52,373 nucleotides of DNA, taken from sequence record PV173770.1; one strand, written 5' to 3'. Shown here in pieces: positions 35,594 to 42,290 of the stretch. Each line of letters starts with the position of its first letter. Position 1 is the stretch's first letter. The notes beneath the pieces are model-generated. The model was given only the letters and a program-made list of their open reading frames with translations, had not been told where the DNA came from and ran no database searches. A program made the translations under genes and the position numbers. This stretch comes from Pseudomonas phage P7869.

Positions 35594-36619
35594 TCACTCG
35601 TCGAATTCGACGAACTCGCCCTCGGCACTCAACTGGTACCAGGTGTCCGGCTTTACGCCGTTCTCCCCGACCTTGCTGGCGCGGATATGGATGAGGCGCC
35701 CCTCGTCGTCGCGATGGCAGAGAACGATGGCGCTGCCGGCAGACGCGCGAGCGCGGCCTTCGATACCCAGGGATGCGGCGACGGACTCCTTGCCGCTGAC
35801 CTCGGCTGCCGAGTAGTCGCCGGTGTTCGACGCTGCCGAGCGGTTGCCGGTGTTCGACGCTGCCGAGCGGTTGCCGGCGTTCGACGCTGCCGAGCGGTTG
35901 CCGGTGTTCGACGCTGCCGAGTAGTCGCCGGTGTTGCTGGCTGCCGACTGGTAGCCGGTGTTCGACGCTGCCGATTGGTAGCCGGTGTTCGACGCTGCCG
36001 AGCGGTTGCCGGTGTTCGACGCTGCCGAGTAGTCGCCGGTGTTGCTGGCTGCCGAGCGGTTGCCGGTGTTCGACGCTGCCGAGCGGTTGCCGGTGTTCGA
36101 CGCTGCCGAGCGGTTGCCGGCGTTCGACGCTGCCGAGCGGTTGCCGGTGTTCGACGCTGCCGAGTAGTCGCCGGTGTTCGACGCTGCCGAGCGGCTGCCG
36201 GTGTTGCTGGCTGCCGACTGGTAGCCGGTGTTGCTGGCGGTGTCGCCCACCACCGTCTGCTCAACCGAGCTGTCCAACCGAGCCATGATCCAGTCGATGG
36301 CTCGCGAGATCATGGTCGGCATGCTGATTTCCGCCTCCACCACCAGGGTGGCGCTGGCGATCTTGCTGTCATCGTCGTGACGGCTCAGTTGTCCCGAAGC
36401 CTTCACGATGGCGAATCGGCTGTCGCCTGGGGCGTAGTAGCCGAAGACATCAAGGGGGTACTCGCAGGAGTGGAAGCCCGAAGCACATGCCTCTACCTCA
36501 CCCTCGTGCTTATAGGTTCCGCCGATCTCGAACTGGTAGCCGCGGCAGGTCAGGTCTTGCTTGAACCCCTTGTAAGCGGTCACGACCTCTTCGGACGCAG
36601 CCTTTTTCTTGCTCGCCAT
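35594..36619 (-). CDS. Tandem-repeat protein: globular N-terminal domain + about 16 x 9-aa repeats SAASNTG(NR/DY/YQ) + C-terminal domain
   Basis: Start refined to MASKKK (GGAGAA RBS). Repeat array is in-frame with a 27-nt period. Confidence 0.55.
   Translation of the reverse strand: MASKKKAASEEVVTAYKGFKQDLTCRGYQFEIGGTYKHEGEVEACASGFHSCEYPLDVFGYYAPGDSRFAIVKASGQLSRHDDDSKIASATLVVEAEISMPTMISRAIDWIMARLDSSVEQTVVGDTASNTGYQSAASNTGSRSAASNTGDYSAASNTGNRSAASNAGNRSAASNTGNRSAASNTGNRSAASNTGDYSAASNTGNRSAASNTGYQSAASNTGYQSAASNTGDYSAASNTGNRSAASNAGNRSAASNTGNRSAASNTGDYSAAEVSGKESVAASLGIEGRARASAGSAIVLCHRDDEGRLIHIRASKVGENGVKPDTWYQLSAEGEFVEFDE
35806..36240. repeat. 27-bp tandem repeat array (about 16 copies, units differ at 2 codons; higher-order DY-NR-NR-NR periodicity)
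   Basis: Unit on the plus strand is CGGTTGCCGGTGTTCGACGCTGCCGAG. Both strands show long ORFs. The plus-strand 35687..36637 ORF is a mirror artefact. Confidence 0.8.
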
Positions 36620-36722
36620 CGCGATTCTCCGTTTTAGGTTTGCCCTGGGTTGGGCGATAGGGCGCCCGGATGGGCAAATGGGTTGGAGCTGGTGATGCCC
36701 CGGCGAACCGGGGAGGTGGTAG

Positions 36723-36869
36723 TTAGTCTGAAAATTCAATATCTAATCCATCCAGAACGGCCTGAATGATTTGCGTTAGCTGGTCATTGTCCAGGTCTGA
36801 ACAATCAAACCCGCATTCGCGAAGGCAGTCAGAGACTGCCTCTAGCTGGGATTCAGTCAGGCTAATCAT
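36723..36869 (-). CDS. Small acidic protein (48 aa)
   Basis: GAAGG RBS. ATGA overlap with the upstream small ORF. Confidence 0.25.
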   Translation of the reverse strand: MISLTESQLEAVSDCLRECGFDCSDLDNDQLTQIIQAVLDGLDIEFSD

Positions 36870-37099: not shown

Positions 37100-37699
37100 T
37101 CATTGCTCAAGTTTTCTGGCGCGCTCCTCAAGAGCAGCGCAGATTCGCTTGTCATGCCTATCCAGTAACTCGTATCTCTTGACGGCTTCGCGGAGAACGT
37201 TTGCTTTCGCTGCCCTCCATGCGACATGCGCCGATTCAGGATCAGGAAAAACGCCAATTAGGAATTGCTTCCCATCACAGCCTCTAATCCGTGCCATGAA
37301 GGGGTTGGGTTTACTGCTTTGATTCCGGCTAACGCCTAATGGAAGGTCGCTTTTGCGATTTGCGGGTTCAGGGCAAAGGGCGTTTAGCCATTGCGGAATG
37401 AAGACTGAGGTCTCCGGGCAGTAGAGCTTTTCCCATGGCCTCAAAATGTCCTTGTCCAGGCTATTCCCCTGCCAAGGCTGCTCCTGCATCCAGGCTTTGA
37501 AGGCCATGAATGAGAGCCAGTCGTCTGACATTCGGCAGCCTTCGTAAGAGCGCTGACGGTATGGGCGGCCGCCGTAGCAGCGCTCGATGAGCCCGTGCCA
37601 CCTGTTGTAAAAGTGACAGAGGGCCTTCTTGCCATTCACGACAGACGAGACTTGATAGTCCGCGTCATTGATTCCGATGCCACAAACAAGGCCTCTCAT
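37100..37699 (-). CDS. Putative DNA-binding protein with C-terminal AP2-like domain and Cys/His-rich N-terminus
   Basis: KQFLIGVFPDPESAHVAWRAAKANVLREAVKRY resembles AP2/ERF-like domains found in phage HNH/regulator proteins. Confidence 0.4.
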   Translation of the reverse strand: MRGLVCGIGINDADYQVSSVVNGKKALCHFYNRWHGLIERCYGGRPYRQRSYEGCRMSDDWLSFMAFKAWMQEQPWQGNSLDKDILRPWEKLYCPETSVFIPQWLNALCPEPANRKSDLPLGVSRNQSSKPNPFMARIRGCDGKQFLIGVFPDPESAHVAWRAAKANVLREAVKRYELLDRHDKRICAALEERARKLEQ

Positions 37700-37881
37700 A
37701 AATCCTCCTCATCGCTGACTTCCCAAAGCGCCCTCGTGTGAAGGCGCTTCAGTGAAGCTTTCCCGCCGCGCTGAGCTACTGGCCTCTCGCGCGGCGTAGT
37801 GCTGTCCTCACCACTGCCGATAGCAGCTCGGACTCGATGTGTTTGGCCTTGGGCTTCCCTCGCAGCGCCTTCAATCGGCAT
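37696..37881 (-). CDS. Hypothetical small protein (61 aa), first sizeable ORF of the leftward early operon
   Basis: ORF only. Confidence 0.25.
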   Translation of the reverse strand: MPIEGAAREAQGQTHRVRAAIGSGEDSTTPRERPVAQRGGKASLKRLHTRALWEVSDEEDL

Positions 37882-37998
37882 ACAGCGCTGGTCGTCGGGG
37901 ACGGTGTTTCACTCCACGCTTGACTACAGCCCGGTGGCCTGGTGAGTAGGGCAGGTATGCGTGGGTTGCCGATCCGAACATCGGCTGGGCTTAGTGCT

Positions 37999-38217
37999 TC
38001 ATGGGCTGTTTCCTCCTATTGGTGTCATCTCGGTCGCTTCTCCTTGTCGGGGTTCGTTCCCACTCCTGCGTTTGCTTCTTTGGTCTATTGGCAGGTGACT
38101 TGAGCGACGTCGCGTGCAACGCATGGGCTTGCACGGCTGGACTGTCCGGCCCAGCTCGGGCTGCGTCTTTTGCCTCTCCCAGCGTCTCGCGACGTTGGCG
38201 CAGCAGAGGGTTCCCAA
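37999..38217 (-). CDS. Arg-rich small ORF (up to 72 aa, TTG start) immediately downstream of boxA; weak N-antiterminator-like candidate
   Basis: Very basic (RRWERQ..RRRSS..KRRSG). No good RBS. Could be a GC-bias artefact. Confidence 0.15.
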   Translation of the reverse strand: MGTLCCANVARRWERQKTQPELGRTVQPCKPMRCTRRRSSHLPIDQRSKRRSGNEPRQGEATEMTPIGGNSP

Positions 38218-38233
38218 ATTGTCGAAAGAGCGG
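38211..38233 (-). promoter_or_regulatory. boxA-like element CGCTCTTTCGACAATTTGGGAA in leftward early leader
   Basis: The minus-strand RNA would read GCUCUUU-CG-ACAAUUU. Compare rrn boxA UGCUCUUUAACAAUUU. Located about 50-90 nt downstream of the predicted PL. Confidence 0.45.
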
Positions 38234-38282
38234 TCGGCTCGGTGGCCTGGCGCTGCGTTGTTCTGCGGCGTTGAAGATAAAT

Positions 38283-38324
38283 TAGCAGTGCTGTTATTAA
38301 ATGGTCAATAGCACTGCTGATATT
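38283..38324. promoter_or_regulatory. OL-type operator pair plus leftward early promoter (PL-like)
   Basis: TTAGCAGTGCTGTTAT and AATAGCACTGCTGATAT match three related sites in the cI-cro intergenic region. TTGACC-N17-CTAATT is a sigma70-like element on the minus strand. Confidence 0.5.
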
Positions 38325-38340
38325 TTTCTTGCGCCCATGA

Positions 38341-38362
38341 AAAAGCCCGCGCTAGGCGGGCT
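38341..38362 (-). terminator. Intrinsic terminator (GCCCGC-ctagc-GCGGGC + T5 on minus strand) ending the X3 transcription unit
   Basis: Hairpin flanked by A5 on the plus strand. Confidence 0.6.
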
Positions 38363-38380
38363 TGGGAACGTCTCTGTCTG

Positions 38381-39034
38381 CTATAGGCCTGGGTAGCCTG
38401 TTGGGTCGAACTCGAAAACGCGCTCTCCTGCCTGGAAGAACTCTATGGCGATCCGGAAAGGCTTGCCCGATTTGACGATGGACTCCAATTGCTTAGCGTC
38501 CCGAACGAACATGAGGTCGCTGTCGTTGGTGGAACTGCGGACCCCGGTCCACTTTTGCGCCTTGCCTTCACCGACCCGAAGAACGAACCCGCAGTCTCGA
38601 TAACCGCACTGCATCTGCCCTTTGGTGATCTTGAGGAAGCCGTCCAGGTCTTTGCCCTTCTTGCGGAAGGTGAGGCTCAGGAACGAACCCCCTGCAACCC
38701 GATATGGGAAATCGAAGAGGGTTGACGTCTTCGACTGGAGCGTGAGCATTGTGGTTACTTCATCACTCATCGGGTCCTTGTATTCATGGCGCTCCCAAGG
38801 GGATTTAGTAGTGCTTGTGGCTGCCGATTGCGAACTGGATGGTCGCGACTGAGCCGCATCGCCGGAGGAGCCGATTCCCGTTCCAAACTGCCAAGCGATA
38901 GGCAGGACGATGAATATCACAAACAGCCAGCCGATGACGCCAACGCTCTTGGGTACCTTTGCACCGCACGATGGGCAGGCTTTGGCTTTGTTCGACACCT
39001 GGGCGCCGCATTCCTTGCATTTAATCAGGGCCAC
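38381..39034 (-). CDS. Membrane-anchored protein: N-terminal zinc ribbon (CxxC...CxxC), 1 TM, about 150-aa periplasmic domain (immunity-region gene X3)
   Basis: GTG start with GAGGAG RBS. Sequence MALIKCKECGAQVSNKAKACPSCGAKV, then TM VGVIGWLFVIFIVLPIAW. Own 213-nt upstream region and own terminator. Confidence 0.5.
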   Translation of the reverse strand: MALIKCKECGAQVSNKAKACPSCGAKVPKSVGVIGWLFVIFIVLPIAWQFGTGIGSSGDAAQSRPSSSQSAATSTTKSPWERHEYKDPMSDEVTTMLTLQSKTSTLFDFPYRVAGGSFLSLTFRKKGKDLDGFLKITKGQMQCGYRDCGFVLRVGEGKAQKWTGVRSSTNDSDLMFVRDAKQLESIVKSGKPFRIAIEFFQAGERVFEFDPTGYPGL

Positions 39035-39220
39035 GGAAAACTCCTCGATGTGTAATGGCTAGGTGATTCTATTCGGAGGGGACTGGAGAGGGTAGCCACA
39101 GTTTGGCTAGGCGGGCTCAGGATTCGGTGTCAGGCGGGGCAGCGCTGGGGCGAGTTCAGCGCCTGGGCATGGCTATCGTCAGCTCAGTGCAGAGCCGGGA
39201 AGGAAGGGCAGCTTGGAACG

Positions 39221-39242
39221 AAAAGCCCCGCGGGTGCGGGGC
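39221..39242 (-). terminator. Intrinsic terminator (GCCCCGC-accc-GCGGGGC + T4) after gene X2
   Basis: Hairpin 6 nt after the X2 stop. Confidence 0.55.
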
Positions 39243-39247
39243 TGTGA

Positions 39248-39997
39248 TCAATGTAGCGCTGGGCTGTAGTGCTTCTCGAAATCCGTCAGTCGTATCGTGC
39301 TGGCGATGTCCCCTAGTACGCTGATTTCTGCTTCGGCCCGCTCTTCTTGGCCTCGATCATCGACGATAAACAGCAACTTAAGCGGATCTTCGCTGCGGTT
39401 AATGAGAACGGCTTTCCTAAGTCGAGCGTTCACCGACTGCGCCAGAGGTCGGATTGCATCAACATAAGTATCTCCCCACAGGAAGTCGAAGGATATCTCG
39501 TTCTTCCCAATGGACACGGTAGCGTTCCTGACCAGTTGCTTCTCTGGCGCCTTGGCGCGGAGCAGCATCTCAATCTCTGACGTGAGAGAGAAGTCAGTAT
39601 CGCCCTCACTGAAACGCTCGTCTTCCCAGGCGGCGATAGCCGCAAAGAGTTTGAGGATGCGGCCACCCCATTCGGCCATATCCGATTGGAGGAACACAGC
39701 CTCAAACGATCCCGATTCGGTCAGGCTAAACCCATGCTTGATGGCTAGATTCTCTAGACCTTTCCAGTTTCGCTTATCGCCGAGCTGATACCCTAGGCCG
39801 CTGAGAGCGAACATGGTGATCCCATCGTCAGTGAACTCAACCAGTTCTCCGCGGGGGATTAGGTAGAAATCCAGAGGTTTACCACCAGGGAGCACGATCG
39901 GAGTGCTGATATAGGTGGCCATGGCTCCGCCGGCCTGGACTGCCTGACAGTGCCATCCAGCTTTAGTGAAGAACGTTGAGCAGCCGAGAGTAGCCAT
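39248..39997 (-). CDS. Hypothetical protein X2 (249 aa) co-transcribed with cI; two-domain architecture, no family confidently recognised
   Basis: ATG lies 3 nt after the X1 stop. Soluble, acidic. Confidence 0.45.
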   Translation of the reverse strand: MATLGCSTFFTKAGWHCQAVQAGGAMATYISTPIVLPGGKPLDFYLIPRGELVEFTDDGITMFALSGLGYQLGDKRNWKGLENLAIKHGFSLTESGSFEAVFLQSDMAEWGGRILKLFAAIAAWEDERFSEGDTDFSLTSEIEMLLRAKAPEKQLVRNATVSIGKNEISFDFLWGDTYVDAIRPLAQSVNARLRKAVLINRSEDPLKLLFIVDDRGQEERAEAEISVLGDIASTIRLTDFEKHYSPALH

Positions 39998-40000
39998 GGA

Positions 40001-40489
40001 TCACCCAAACAAATCATCAGTGAACGGAGCGCACAACTGACGGTGGTCATTGTCCAGGATTCTAGCGTGTCTGCGGAATCGCTCAATCCACCGATTGACG
40101 GTCGGCCCATCTAAATTGGCATGGACAATACGTGTGATCTGATCGAGCCGTGGATCGCCCAAATGGATGTGTGGTCCGAAGAAAACCACTCCATTTTCTG
40201 AATGCGAGCGCTCATGTTTGGGATAGATCTCTAGCATGAAGACCCTGCGCATCTCTCGCTGTTCTCGATACATGAGACCGTAGCTGATCCGGTCGCCCAT
40301 CCTTCCAGGGCGATATTCTCCCTTGAATAGCAAACGAGGCAGAGTGACACGGTTTTCGTCCAGTAAAGCGCTGGTCGCTTCAAGCCAACCACTGTGATTT
40401 GGCCGCTCTCCCCATTCCAGCTCTTCGGAAAGGTATTTGATCTTTTTGCACCAATCCCGGCACTCATCAAGCCAAGTGGCCTTGTTCAC
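40001..40489 (-). CDS. Hypothetical protein X1 (about 162 aa) immediately downstream of cI
   Basis: GTG start with AAGGAG RBS at ideal spacing. The ORF-track TTG extension was rejected. Motif VFFGPHIHLGDPR. No family recognised. Confidence 0.45.
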   Translation of the reverse strand: MNKATWLDECRDWCKKIKYLSEELEWGERPNHSGWLEATSALLDENRVTLPRLLFKGEYRPGRMGDRISYGLMYREQREMRRVFMLEIYPKHERSHSENGVVFFGPHIHLGDPRLDQITRIVHANLDGPTVNRWIERFRRHARILDNDHRQLCAPFTDDLFG

Positions 40490-40562
40490 TCCCTTGCTCC
40501 TTCGGCTATCTGACAACCGATCCCTTCAATTGCTCCATCACTCCCTTATGACCCGCCCATAG

Positions 40563-41369
40563 CTACAAATCCCCACCCCGCCAGATGACCTTGCCTATGA
40601 TGCGGTGCTCGTCGTTGTCTTCACGCGACAGGTTACGGTCTGGAAACTCGGCCTTATCCTCGTTGTCACTTCGGATTATCCAGCGGCCAAAAGTGGATGA
40701 AACCAGTCTCTTGACGATGGCTCCATCAGATCCAGCGAGCACGAAGACCTGGTGGTCTTCAGGCTCAATCTTAGATAAATCAACGAGGAGCACATCACCA
40801 TCGTTGATGGTGGGCTCCATGCTCTCGCCATCCGCATAAATCACGGCCAAGCTCTTTGGGCTAACGCCCTTCGCCTTGAGCCATTCCCGCTTAAAAGCCA
40901 AGGTGGCTCGAATCTCAACATGCGGGTTCTCACTTCCTAAACCGGCCGCTGCCTTGGCATCGTACTGAGGCACGAAGGCGTATCGCTCCTCGCTCAGGTC
41001 GGCAGCATCAAGACGATCCGGGAATGGCGCATTCGCGGCTTCGCGCTCAGGCGCCTTGACTCCATCTTGGTGACTGGCGCGCCTGATTCCAGAAGCCAGG
41101 GTTGGGCTCACCTCCGACGGCTCAAACTGAAGATGCTCGGCGAGCCTGACAAGAGCCTCAAGGTTAAGCGCAACGCGTCCAGTCATGTATTGACTGACGG
41201 TGCTTTGCCCGGACTTCCAGCCGCATTTTTCACCCAGCTCAGCCTGGTTCAGTATTGGATTGTCACCGCGTTCACGCGATTCCTTGACTCGCTTCTTGTA
41301 GATGGCCTGGAGGCGCTTAGCGTCGTCCAACTGGGATTGCGACAGAGGGGTTCTTACGGGCTTTTTCAT
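40563..41369 (-). CDS. cI: CI-like repressor: XRE-HTH + LexA/S24 autopeptidase domain
   Basis: N-terminal HTH (LNQAELGEKCGWKSGQSTVSQYMTG). C-terminal GESMEP (Ser nucleophile) ... KR (Lys). Divergent from cro. Start refined to MKKPVRTPL. Confidence 0.85.
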   Translation of the reverse strand: MKKPVRTPLSQSQLDDAKRLQAIYKKRVKESRERGDNPILNQAELGEKCGWKSGQSTVSQYMTGRVALNLEALVRLAEHLQFEPSEVSPTLASGIRRASHQDGVKAPEREAANAPFPDRLDAADLSEERYAFVPQYDAKAAAGLGSENPHVEIRATLAFKREWLKAKGVSPKSLAVIYADGESMEPTINDGDVLLVDLSKIEPEDHQVFVLAGSDGAIVKRLVSSTFGRWIIRSDNEDKAEFPDRNLSREDNDEHRIIGKVIWRGGDL

Positions 41370-41380
41370 CCGAGTGATTA

Positions 41381-41454
41381 AGTAGCAGAGCTGATATTTA
41401 TGCAAACAGCACTGCTGCTGTTTTGCTTGAAAAATCAATAACAGCAGTGCTAAT
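41381..41454. promoter_or_regulatory. OR-type tripartite operator with divergent PRM/PR-like promoters
   Basis: Three related sites (AGTAGCAGAGCTGATAT, AACAGCACTGCTGCTGTT, TAACAGCAGTGCTAAT). TTGAAA-N17-CTAATG points rightward. TTGCAT...TACTTA points leftward and ends about 8 nt before the cI ATG, so the cI mRNA is near-leaderless. Confidence 0.5.
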
Positions 41455-41484
41455 GTGTGTGCAGGACTCCAGCGAGAGCACACC

Positions 41485-41682
41485 ATGAAGACCGTAACCC
41501 TCATTGAATACCTGGCTGAGCACGGCACGCAGGCTGATCTGGCCAAAGGGCTTGGCGTGCAGCAGAGCGCTATCTCTCAGATGCTCCGCGCCAAGCGGAA
41601 CATAACCATCACGATCCGTGACGACGGGAAGTTGGAGGCTGTTGAAACGCGGCCGATCCCGGCGCGCAAGGCCGTTGCCTGA
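41485..41682 (+). CDS. cro: Cro-like HTH repressor (YdaS/Cro family)
   Basis: 65 aa. HTH in QADLAKGLGVQQSAISQMLR. Divergent from cI. Confidence 0.7.
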   Translation: MKTVTLIEYLAEHGTQADLAKGLGVQQSAISQMLRAKRNITITIRDDGKLEAVETRPIPARKAVA

Positions 41683-41717
41683 CCCCGACCAATCTACCGG
41701 CCGGGAGGCCACAAAGC

Positions 41718-42290
41718 ATGCGAAGCGAATCGCACACCCTGATCTCCACACTGCTCAGCGTGGTGAACCAATGGCGCCGCCGCGAAGGCTGGAGCCGCGA
41801 GACCGTGGTCCAGCACATCGTGGAGGCTCACGAACGCATCAACGCTCATATCGCCACCGGAATCGTATTCGACCCTCCCTCGCGTGATGCGATGGACAGG
41901 ATGAAGGCGAATGCCGATCGGGTGTTCCGCTGGCTGGATGACTCCACGAAGGACAACAACTTGCTTCCGGCAAATTTCCTGCCTTCGATCCTGGCCGCTC
42001 TCCCGAACGATCTGAAGATTCAGGCTTTGGGCGACCTGCTGACTCCGGTCGGGGTATCGGTTCGCCTGATCGATGGAGAGGGCGGCGAGCGGGAAGTGCT
42101 CTGCATGCTCCGATCCCTGATCAAAGAGAACGGTGAAGCACAGCAGGCAATTGCGAGCCTGGTTGATGGCGCTGATGAAGGTGAGCTGCAAGAGGCTCAC
42201 CGTGAACTCTCTGAGTCTCGCGCCGCGACAGAAGAGGCTCTGCGGATGATTGACCAGATGCGACGCAAGCCTCGCCTGGTGAGCGTCTGA
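41718..42290 (+). CDS. YdaT-like regulatory protein (cII-position)
   Basis: ANADRVFRWLDDSTKDNNLLPANFLPSILAAL parallels the YdaT family (IFRWVEKDT...). Follows the YdaS/Cro-like gene, as in ydaS-ydaT pairs. Confidence 0.45.
   Translation: MRSESHTLISTLLSVVNQWRRREGWSRETVVQHIVEAHERINAHIATGIVFDPPSRDAMDRMKANADRVFRWLDDSTKDNNLLPANFLPSILAALPNDLKIQALGDLLTPVGVSVRLIDGEGGEREVLCMLRSLIKENGEAQQAIASLVDGADEGELQEAHRELSESRAATEEALRMIDQMRRKPRLVSV

What the first reader, a model, noticed from the sequence alone, without database searches (positions are those of the whole stretch)
38381..40489. Three accessory genes ride on the cI immunity transcript (rexAB-like position): candidate novel exclusion/defence module
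Directly downstream of the LexA-type cI sit two tightly coupled unknown genes, X1 (about 162 aa) and X2 (249 aa), with only a 3-nt gap between them. They are followed by their own terminator. Next comes a separately terminated gene, X3, encoding a zinc-ribbon/TM/periplasmic-domain membrane protein. All three lie between cI and the OL operators. In lambda this is exactly where rexA-rexB sit, co-transcribed with cI and expressed in the lysogen. None of the three matches a family I can name confidently. X1 has an HxHxGD-like stretch (VFFGPHIHLGDPR). A cytosolic pair plus a membrane effector expressed from the lysogenic promoter is the architecture expected of a prophage-encoded anti-phage or abortive-infection system.
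Basis: partly seen in the sequence, partly recalled or inferred. Interest (0 to 1): 0.8.

Follow-up and report, generated by a model that had tools for sequence, protein, structure and literature searches.

The report
Repressor-linked two-gene defence candidate plus moron
Downstream of the repressor gene of a Pseudomonas aeruginosa temperate phage sits a tightly coupled, untested two-gene cassette that recurs behind repressor genes of unrelated prophages and is probably an anti-phage module, followed by an unrelated membrane-protein gene that moves independently.

Summary
On the minus strand, cI (S24/HTH) is followed by X1 (162 aa), X2 (249 aa, 3-nt gap), a terminator, X3 (217 aa: zinc ribbon, one TM helix) and a second terminator. 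All lie between cI and immunity-specific OL/PL operators.

X1-X2 is an autonomous cassette, adjacent in all 16 contexts examined and directly behind a prophage repressor gene in 10. These span Pseudomonas, Comamonas, Stenotrophomonas, Vreelandella and Helicobacter.

Phage 5371 has a 99% identical cI and carries a different PDC-M24-type pair in the same slot, so the slot is an exchange hotspot.

X3 is not part of the module. It is a separate cassette, absent from 5371, found with other cargo in four phages and in tail modules of other prophages.

No defence phenotype or lysogen expression has been shown.

The parts
41384..41454 (.). OR: three copies of the operator motif (AGCAGTGCTRTT-type, near-palindromic) between cI and cro
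   Evidence: motif search; 0 of 100 shuffles reached 18 matches; sequence.
41485..41682 (+). cro-like gene, divergent from cI
   Evidence: ORF. 99% identical to the region annotated cro in phage 5371.
40563..41366 (-). cI repressor (HTH_3 + Peptidase_S24). The ATG at 41366 is taken as the start.
   Evidence: S24 2.7e-15, HTH_3 1.7e-6; phrog_4. 99.1% nt identity to phage 5371 cI.
40490..40562 (-). cI-X1 spacer, 73 nt. It has no terminator or promoter consensus and carries the X1 ribosome-binding site (AAGGAG). The right-hand mosaic joint of the cargo slot lies at about 40561.
   Evidence: Homology to phage 5371 ends at 40561.
40001..40489 (-). X1, 162 aa, soluble. An N-terminal helix, a roughly nine-strand antiparallel beta-sheet and a C-terminal helix. 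Conserved C10, C14, H96, G105-P-H107-x-H109-L-G-D112. Belongs to phrog_2017 and is the A-component of the cassette.
39248..39997 (-). X2, 249 aa, soluble. The N-terminal DUF1828 domain is type III chaperone/YbjN-like. The C-terminal domain has a restriction-endonuclease-like fold. Belongs to phrog_1960, is PDC-M24B-like and is the B-component.
39224..39243 (-). Intrinsic terminator after X2. It belongs to the conserved phage backbone and is the left-hand joint of cargo slot 1.
   Evidence: Conserved at 96.6% in phage 5371, after that phage's own cargo.
39106..39223 (-). Conserved backbone spacer between the two terminators. No ORF and no Rfam match; function unknown.
   Evidence: (76% identity to 5371, 95% to Marin, D14O and FBPa47).
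38367..39105 (-). X3 cassette, absent from phage 5371. The CDS is 38381-39034 (217 aa): cytoplasmic zinc ribbon, one TM helix and an extracytoplasmic domain of about 160 residues. It is an independent moron.
38340..38363 (-). Second intrinsic terminator. It is part of the backbone and is shared with 5371 and Marin.
38279..38321 (-). OL/PL: two operator copies flanking TTGACC (38308-38303) and a TAATTT-like -10. The promoter reads leftward.
   Evidence: The operators change with cI type in phage Marin while the -35 is kept. The promoter assignment is an inference.

Best explanation
The region holds two separate accessory units in a variable cargo slot of the immunity region of a P. aeruginosa lambdoid (Detrevirus-related) phage.

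**Unit 1: X1-X2**
- It is a translationally coupled two-gene cassette. It most likely rides on the cI transcript from PRM and ends at the terminator after X2.
- It is a divergent branch of the PADLOC candidate type PDC-M24.
  - The A protein is small and beta-rich, with a conserved Cys/His motif (C-x3-C ... SH ... GPHxHxGD). It has no solved structural relative.
  - The B protein has an N-terminal DUF1828 domain with the type III secretion chaperone/YbjN fold. Its C-terminal domain has the restriction-endonuclease (PD-(D/E)xK-like) fold.
- Most likely function (inferred, not shown): a prophage-expressed anti-phage module.
  - The chaperone-like domain of X2, alone or held in check by X1, would sense a product of a superinfecting phage.
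  - The nuclease-like domain would then attack DNA. This would either destroy the invader or abort the infection.

**Unit 2: X3**
- It is an independent moron encoding a single-pass inner-membrane protein (N-terminus in, C-terminus out).
- Its most likely role is an envelope-level function such as superinfection exclusion. This is weakly inferred.

**Shown versus inferred**
- Shown: gene order, coupling, terminators, operators, mosaic joints, family membership, predicted folds and recurrence behind repressor genes.
- Inferred: co-transcription, expression in the lysogen, nuclease activity, the roles of X1 and X2, and any defence phenotype.
For: **Anatomy**
- Same strand; a 73-nt unstructured spacer after cI; a 3-nt X1-X2 gap; the first terminator comes only after X2.

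**Autonomy and coupling**
- X1 is immediately upstream of X2 in every locus. Gaps range from a 4-nt overlap to +11 nt.

**Repressor linkage**
- 10 of 16 independent contexts have the order repressor, X1, X2, with different repressors.
- The repressors range from 152 to 341 aa. One is an HTH-only repressor without an S24 domain.
- The hosts are Pseudomonas species, Comamonas, Stenotrophomonas, Vreelandella and Helicobacter.

**Accessory nature**
- Phage 5371 shares cI at 99.1% identity but lacks X1-X2-X3.
- Its slot holds a 172-aa protein (DUF6978; PDC-M24A 1.2e-8) and a 258-aa protein (DUF1828; PDC-M24B 1.3e-13).
- Marin/FBPa47 and D14O carry yet other cargo.

**Defence association**
- All 45 X2-family members match PDC-M24B (best 2.6e-10).
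- 9 of 40 X1-family members match PDC-M24A (best 2.4e-5), and no other family appears.
- PDCs were defined from genes embedded in BREX, DISARM or type I RM loci (PDC-M24 listed).
- In Comamonas prophages the pair is followed by HNH, Mrr_cat or HSDR_N genes and a RES toxin module.

**Effector fold**
- Conserved charged residues are E143, D171, D180, R194, K195, D213, D214, R215 and E224.

**X3 independence**.
Against: - There are no expression data and no phenotype for this pair or for any PDC-M24 member. The literature search found nothing.
- The window's own X1 does not reach any PDC-M24A model. X2 reaches PDC-M24B only at 1.6e-4.
- X1 is not demonstrably homologous to the A protein of phage 5371 (hhalign E 0.007, probability 5%; phmmer found nothing).
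- No canonical PD-(D/E)xK triad can be read from the sequence. The most strongly conserved block, D213-D214-R215 and E224, lies outside the usual catalytic strands.
- 6 of 16 contexts are not repressor-linked. One is the early region of the Mu-like Burkholderia phage phi644-2. There the pair sits among co-oriented early-region genes and may be expressed in lytic growth (orientation only; inference).
- The same architecture would fit a toxin-antitoxin or addiction module.
Confidence: 0.55

Rival explanations
1. One reading: cI-X1-X2-X3 is one exclusion system, in which the cytosolic X1-X2 pair signals to the membrane protein X3 as effector, in the manner of RexA-RexB.
For: All three genes lie on one strand between cI and OL. 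X3 is a membrane protein. The terminator after X2 has an interrupted U-tract (UUUUCGUU), so some read-through into X3 is conceivable. No sigma-70 promoter was found for X3.
Against: The X3 cassette (38367-39105) is absent from phage 5371, while the flanking backbone is conserved. In three of four P. aeruginosa phages X3 lies behind unrelated cargo. In other prophages it sits in tail modules. None of the other 15 X1-X2 contexts has an X3 homologue downstream.
Confidence: 0.04
2. X1-X2 is a toxin-antitoxin or addiction module whose main role is to stabilise the prophage or island. A nuclease-like toxin X2 would be neutralised by X1. There would be no dedicated anti-phage function.
For: The two genes are small, translationally coupled and always adjacent. 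They move between integrase-proximal, IS-flanked and TA-flanked sites. X2 has a nuclease-like fold.
Against: No antitoxin-type DNA-binding domain is detected in X1 or X2. The repeated placement on the repressor transcript, the embedding of relatives in BREX, DISARM or RM loci, and the swapping of diverged alleles behind an identical cI all fit conflict with other phages better. The two roles are not mutually exclusive.
Confidence: 0.15
3. X1-X2 serves the phage's own life cycle. Examples would be modulating repressor cleavage, induction or the lysis-lysogeny choice, or an early anti-defence or host-takeover function.
For: The pair is strikingly linked to repressor genes, mostly of S24 type. 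In the Mu-like phage phi644-2 it sits among early genes.
Against: Phage 5371 has essentially the same cI, OR and OL without this pair. One linked repressor lacks an S24 domain. The pair also occurs next to an integrase, between TacAT and an IS605 transposase gene, and between prohead protease and capsid genes.
Confidence: 0.1
4. These are lysogenic-conversion genes unrelated to phage conflict, for example host physiology or virulence. Alternatively they are non-functional hitch-hiking DNA.
For: The function is untested. X3-type envelope proteins are often conversion factors.
Against: Conservation is strong: 12 invariant columns in X1 and 16 in X2 across sequences 30-86% identical. The ORFs are intact and coupled in nearly all loci. 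There is an independent defence-context signal.
Confidence: 0.1

Closest known systems
PADLOC phage defence candidate PDC-M24 (two genes, A then B; Payne et al., bioRxiv 10.1101/2024.01.29.577857)
   Same: Both have two co-oriented adjacent genes: an A protein of about 150-170 aa and a B protein of about 250 aa with DUF1828. All 45 X2-family members match PDC-M24B, and 9 of 40 X1-family members match PDC-M24A. A clearer PDC-M24 pair occupies the same slot in phage 5371.
   Different: The window's X1 itself matches no PDC-M24A model, and X2 matches PDC-M24B only weakly (1.6e-4). PDC-M24 was defined from cassettes embedded in BREX, DISARM or type I RM loci, whereas here the context is a prophage repressor operon. 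PDC-M24 has never been tested experimentally.
Phage lambda rexA-rexB (and RexAB-type systems such as P. putida PP_5643-5644, PMC12894663)
   Same: The position is the same: directly downstream of cI, same strand, between cI and OL/PL. Both are two-gene accessory cassettes presumably expressed in the lysogen.
   Different: There is no sequence match to RexA or RexB (no Pfam or PADLOC match at E<=1). Both X1 and X2 are soluble, whereas RexB is a polytopic membrane effector. The putative effector here is nuclease-like.
BstA (prophage-encoded abortive-infection protein, PMC8585504)
   Same: Both are defence-type genes carried by prophages. My recollection that bstA lies next to the BTP1 repressor gene was not checked here.
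   Different: BstA is a single protein. No homology was detected: there is no BstA match in PADLOC.
Sensor plus PD-(D/E)xK nuclease effectors (for example Can2/Card1 and Mrr-like or type II/IV restriction enzymes)
   Different: X2 has no CARF or DNA-recognition domain; its N-terminal domain is type III chaperone/YbjN-like. No canonical catalytic motif is recognisable.
HK97 gp15 moron (superinfection exclusion; PMC3594210), as a comparison for X3
   Same: Both are small inner-membrane proteins encoded by mobile single-gene cassettes. An X3 homologue in an Acinetobacter prophage sits just upstream of an 825-aa ORF (no Pfam hit; taken to be the tape-measure gene) and downstream of the tail-tube gene and two small ORFs. 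That would be the position gp15 has in HK97.
   Different: There is no sequence similarity. X3 is larger, with a zinc ribbon and an extracytoplasmic domain of about 160 residues. Its function is untested.

Membership tests
Lambda RexAB exclusion system | Located immediately downstream of cI, on the same strand, between cI and OL/PL | tested here: met
Lambda RexAB exclusion system | A RexA-homologous cytosolic sensor | tested here: not met
   No Pfam, PADLOC, NCBIfam or PHROG match of X1 or X2 to RexA.
Lambda RexAB exclusion system | A RexB-type polytopic inner-membrane effector as the second gene | tested here: not met
   X2 is soluble (maximum 19-residue hydropathy 1.02). X3 has a single TM helix and is an independent cassette.
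PADLOC PDC-M24 candidate | Two adjacent co-oriented genes in the order A then B | tested here: met
   3-nt gap in the window. The genes are adjacent in all 16 contexts.
PADLOC PDC-M24 candidate | The B protein matches a PDC-M24B profile | tested here: met
   Window X2 scores 1.6e-4 (weak). All 45 of 45 family members match, best 2.6e-10.
PADLOC PDC-M24 candidate | The A protein matches a PDC-M24A profile | tested here: inconclusive
   The window's X1 has no match at E<=1. 9 of 40 family members match, best 2.4e-5. hhalign against the phage 5371 A protein gives E 0.007, probability 5%.
PADLOC PDC-M24 candidate | Anti-phage activity | not testable with these tools
   PDCs are described as untested. 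No paper mentions PDC-M24.
PD-(D/E)xK nuclease superfamily (X2 C-terminal domain) | The alpha-beta-beta-beta-alpha-beta restriction-endonuclease core fold | tested here: met
PD-(D/E)xK nuclease superfamily (X2 C-terminal domain) | The catalytic D...(D/E)-x-K signature | tested here: inconclusive
   Conserved residues are E143, D171 (76%), D180, K195, D213, D214 and E224, but there is no canonical linear motif.
Type II toxin-antitoxin module | Two small, translationally coupled genes | tested here: met
Type II toxin-antitoxin module | An antitoxin with a recognisable DNA-binding or neutralising domain, or a toxin from a known family | tested here: not met
   No such Pfam or NCBIfam domain in X1 or X2.
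Moron (X3) | A discrete insertion relative to otherwise collinear relatives | tested here: met
   38367-39105 is absent from phage 5371 and lies between conserved backbone segments.
Moron (X3) | Own promoter and terminator | tested here: inconclusive
   No sigma-70 consensus lies upstream. The terminator after X3 belongs to the shared backbone.

The most novel reading that the evidence does not exclude
X1-X2 and the PDC-M24 pairs may form one widespread family of two-gene immune modules with three properties.
- Prophages of Gamma-, Beta- and Epsilonproteobacteria wire them onto the repressor transcript, as a functional analogue of RexAB.
- They use a soluble effector with a restriction-endonuclease-like fold, gated by a type III chaperone-like sensor domain, together with a partner protein of a previously unseen fold.
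- Their highly diverged alleles are exchanged at a fixed slot bounded by conserved joint sequences, behind otherwise identical immunity regions. That would set each lysogen's exclusion spectrum.
Probability: 0.35. Interest if true: 0.7.

Novelty: new variant of a known kind. Interest (0 to 1): 0.55.

Why it matters
- If X1-X2 is validated, an untested catalogue entry (PDC-M24) becomes a real defence family, with a clear natural expression context: the repressor operon.
- It would add a second, mechanistically different occupant of the classic rexAB position, conserved across three proteobacterial classes.
- It would give a defined recombination slot in P. aeruginosa temperate phages for mining further defence cargo. 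Cargo already seen there includes DUF3800 and BRCT-like proteins and two other unknown genes.
- There is a practical angle. P. aeruginosa lysogens carrying different alleles could differ in susceptibility to therapeutic phages.
- X1 has no structural relative in the PDB, so its role as sensor, inhibitor or enzyme would be new biochemistry.

Tried and rejected
**Comparisons that found nothing**
- Pairwise BLASTP of X1 and X2 against the phage 5371 cargo and against the Marin 247-aa protein. The link to 5371 appeared only through the PADLOC and Pfam profiles.
- phmmer and jackhmmer of the 5371 A protein against 173 X1 relatives.
- hhalign of the broad X1 profile against the 5371 A protein: E 0.007, probability 5%, so homology was left open.
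- Only 2 of the 88 sequences in alignment A4 match DUF6978, and one of the two is the phage 5371 A protein that I added to the alignment.
- PDB sequence search with the X1 and X2 profiles: nothing below E 0.39.
- BFVD search with X1: one uncharacterised viral protein (2.1e-5, TM 0.65).
- Rfam scan of 37600-41800: only sub-threshold chance matches.

- The afdb50 fold library was not available.
- The search for related loci with the 45-sequence alignment failed. A 15-sequence alignment gave only 7 genome loci.
- Model coordinates are not exposed. Metal-site and active-site geometry could therefore not be checked.

**Ideas considered and dropped**
- RexAB membership: rejected (see the membership table).
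- The promoter-like site inside X1 (40086-40059): dismissed, since 1 site was found against 1.7 expected.
- Phage Fc02 (PMC9936078) and SNIPE (PMC13190303) were examined and are unrelated.

**Literature**: searches for DUF1828, DUF6978 and PDC-M24 found no functional study.
Full report
**1. What is in the sequence**

The window is a Pseudomonas aeruginosa temperate phage. All 51 phage records similar to 38000-41700 are Pseudomonas phages, several classified as Detrevirus.

On the minus strand the order is as follows.
- cI, 40563-41366.
- A 73-nt spacer.
- X1, 40001-40489, 162 aa from a GTG preceded by AAGGAG.
- A 3-nt gap.
- X2, 39248-39997, 249 aa.
- A GC-rich hairpin plus U-tract at 39243-39224.
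- About 190 nt of non-coding sequence.
- X3, 38381-39034, 217 aa.
- A second hairpin plus U-tract at about 38363-38340.
- The OL/PL region.

Supporting details:
- cI carries HTH_3 and Peptidase_S24.
- The spacer after cI has no terminator-like structure (z -0.94). The hairpin after X2 is strong (z -3.35).
- The operator motif AGCAGTGCTRTT is found at 38281-38321 and, in three copies, at 41384-41454. There are 18 matches in the window against about 7 expected.
- In phage Marin, whose cI differs, the same two positions around a conserved TTGAC carry different repeats. These are therefore true immunity-specific operators, and the three genes do lie between cI and OL/PL.
- X1 and X2 are soluble. 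X3 has a Lys-rich zinc ribbon, one TM helix (residues 30-50) and a C-terminal part of about 160 residues that should face the periplasm.

**2. X1-X2 is an autonomous, conserved pair**

- X1 belongs to phrog_2017 (1.5e-53). X2 belongs to phrog_1960 (8e-85) and has Pfam DUF1828 at its N-terminus.
- Homologues of X1 and X2 come from the same contigs.
- In all 16 independent contexts that I fetched, X1 lies immediately upstream of X2. Gaps range from a 4-nt overlap to +11 nt.
- The X1 family is small: 117 cluster representatives at E<=1e-3 among 1.84 billion proteins.
- Among sequenced phages only two carry a related pair: Burkholderia phage phi644-2 (gp48/gp47) and a Helicobacter pametensis prophage.

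**3. Where the pair sits**

In 10 of the 16 contexts the order is repressor, X1, X2 on one strand.

| Context | Locus | Note |
|---|---|---|
| This window | window | 73-nt gap after cI |
| P. oryzihabitans | L004/L007 | extra 109-aa ORF between |
| Pseudomonas-like metagenome contig (SRA) | L023/L024 | extra 111-aa ORF between |
| P. massiliensis | L019 | directly adjacent |
| P. capsici | L025 | directly adjacent |
| Metagenomic contig | L022 | directly adjacent |
| Comamonas kerstersii | L008-L011 | X1 overlaps the end of the S24 gene |
| Stenotrophomonas | L026 | directly adjacent |
| Vreelandella | L027 | repressor is HTH-only, no S24 |
| Helicobacter pametensis | L013 | directly adjacent |

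The repressors differ in length (152-341 aa), and one lacks S24. The link is therefore to the repressor transcript, not to one repressor protein.

The other six contexts are:
- next to an integrase;
- in an AlpA island;
- beside a GGDEF gene;
- between a TacAT module and an IS605 transposase gene;
- between prohead protease and capsid genes;
- in the early region of a Mu-like phage.

This is the behaviour of a mobile accessory cassette.

**4. The slot is an exchange hotspot**

- Phage 5371 is 99.1% identical to the window from 41700 down to 40561, the cI stop. It is homologous again at the X2 terminator (39215-39243), at 39106-39228 and at 38219-38366.
- Between the joints, 5371 carries other genes. 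Two of them are a 172-aa protein (Pfam DUF6978; PDC-M24A 1.2e-8) and a 258-aa DUF1828 protein (PDC-M24B 1.3e-13), overlapping by 4 nt.
- Two phages with essentially the same immunity region thus carry pairs of the same type that are too diverged for BLASTP to detect.
- Marin and FBPa47 carry a BRCT-like protein and a DUF3800 protein in the slot. D14O carries two other unknown genes.
- A sequence of about 45 nt at the 3' end of cI (40564-40612) recurs at the slot boundary in those phages. It looks like a recombination joint.

**5. Relation to known catalogues**

- All 45 X2-family members match PADLOC PDC-M24B (best 2.6e-10).
- 9 of 40 X1-family members match PDC-M24A (best 2.4e-5). PDC-M24A was the only family matched.
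- The window's own proteins are at the edge of detection: X2 scores 1.6e-4 and X1 has no match.
- PDCs are 145 untested 'phage defence candidates' derived from cassettes embedded in BREX, DISARM or type I RM loci. PDC-M24 is the cassette FAM_00129>>FAM_00065.
- No paper mentions PDC-M24, and none studies DUF1828 or DUF6978 functionally.
- In the Comamonas prophages the pair is followed by HNH, Mrr_cat or HSDR_N genes and a RES module.

**6. Structures**

X1:
- The model has pLDDT 89.6. It is an N-terminal helix, a roughly nine-strand antiparallel sheet and a C-terminal helix.
- Invariant residues are C10, C14, H96, G105, H107, G111, W134 and F138, with near-invariant P106, H109 and D112.
- H96, G105 and H107 persist in very distant relatives.
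This is an inference.

X2:
- The model has pLDDT 85.5 and two domains.
- By the lengths of the aligned segments, I infer that these fit the C-terminal and DUF1828 domains respectively. The tool did not report which residues were aligned.
- The C-terminal domain keeps E143, D171, D180, R194, K195, D213, D214, R215 and E224. No canonical PD-(D/E)xK triad can be read off, and I could not inspect coordinates.

**7. X3 is separate**

- The block 38367-39105 is missing from phage 5371.
- The same gene, 96-99% identical, is in Marin, D14O, FBPa47 and U9, behind other cargo in the three whose neighbourhoods I read.
- More distant homologues sit in the tail modules of P. marincola and Acinetobacter prophages. 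In the Acinetobacter case the gene lies just upstream of an 825-aa ORF with no Pfam hit, which I take to be the tape-measure gene, and downstream of the tail-tube gene and two small ORFs. That would be the place of the HK97 gp15 exclusion moron.
- The family has 164 relatives in many phyla, and no function is known.
- No X1-X2 locus elsewhere is followed by an X3 homologue.
- No promoter consensus precedes X3. How it is expressed is open.

**8. Mechanism**

The best-supported reading has three parts.
- cI-X1-X2 is one lysogenic operon.
- X1-X2 is a divergent PDC-M24-type cassette, most likely an anti-phage module. In it the chaperone-like domain of X2 senses a trigger, possibly with X1 as partner or inhibitor, and the nuclease-like domain is the effector.
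- X3 is an independent envelope moron, possibly for exclusion.

The organisation is shown. Expression, enzymatic activity and phenotype are inferred. Rivals are a toxin-antitoxin or addiction module, a role in the phage's own regulation or early functions, and conversion functions unrelated to phages.

**9. Verdict**

- The pair is not a Rex homologue. It belongs, distantly, to an already catalogued but untested candidate type.
- What this analysis adds: the recurrent wiring behind repressor genes across three proteobacterial classes, the exchange of diverged alleles behind an identical cI, and the fold assignment of X2.
- Interest is moderate (0.55). This is a good, well-delimited experimental candidate rather than a surprise.

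Noticed in passing
window 35594-36739 (-): A 381-aa ORF whose central part is about 20 tandem copies of a 9-residue unit (N/Y-R/Q-S-A-A-S-N-T/A-G). It sits in a stretch of 67-70% GC with strong AT skew. It could be a repeat-rich surface or fibre-like protein or an artefact of overlapping frames.
   Followed up: no
window 40564-40612; L002 5474-5522; L003 5667-5710; L014 2169-2212: The last 45 nt or so of cI are conserved (95-100%) in phages Marin, D14O and FBPa47. Those phages have different repressors and different cargo, and the conserved piece lies at the edge of the same slot. It looks like a recombination boundary sequence.
   Followed up: partly
window 39106-39228: A non-coding segment between the two terminators is conserved in all related phages (76% in 5371, about 95% in Marin, D14O and FBPa47), whether or not X3 is present. 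It has no ORF and no Rfam match. It could be a promoter or a small RNA; its function is unexplained.
   Followed up: partly
L001 2967-4559 (phage 5371): The same cargo slot holds an 84-aa ORF plus a PDC-M24-type pair: a 172-aa DUF6978 protein and a 258-aa DUF1828 protein. All are annotated only as hypothetical.
   Followed up: yes
L002 4401-6210 (phage Marin); L014 1481-3290 (FBPa47): Alternative cargo in the slot: a DUF3800 protein (5e-22; weak PDC-M04A and PDC-S51 matches) and a protein annotated BRCT or NAD-dependent DNA ligase (weak PDC-S48 match). These may be further defence candidates.
   Followed up: partly
L018 5785-6750 (P. quasicaspiana): A single 321-aa ORF matches both X1 (4e-24) and X2 (4.5e-112). 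It starts with the X1 N-terminus, so it is a natural in-frame fusion or deletion of the pair, or a decaying copy.
   Followed up: no
L008/L009 7757-8008 versus L010/L011 4638-5300 (Comamonas kerstersii prophages): The gene caller gives only an 83-aa S24-domain ORF overlapping the X1 start. A longer ORF of about 220 aa with weak cI similarity exists in L010 and L011. The repressor may be truncated or mis-called in some copies.
   Followed up: partly
L029 5001-5663 (Acinetobacter prophage); L028 5001-5657 (P. marincola prophage): X3 homologues sit inside tail modules. In L029 the gene lies just upstream of an 825-aa ORF with no Pfam hit, which I take to be the tape-measure gene; if so, this is the position HK97 gp15 occupies in HK97. 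In L028 it is next to an Arc/AntA-type immI-like pair.
   Followed up: partly
window 37800-38400: There is strong AT skew (-0.34 to -0.43) just leftward of PL, where no convincing ORF of 60 aa or more starts. This may be an untranslated leader or nut-like region of the early-left transcript.
   Followed up: no
X2 residues 6-17 and X1 residues 10-14: Both proteins carry invariant N-terminal cysteines (X2 C6 and C17, beside near-invariant W15; X1 C10 and C14). This raises the possibility of metal sites or a shared site in a complex.
   Followed up: no
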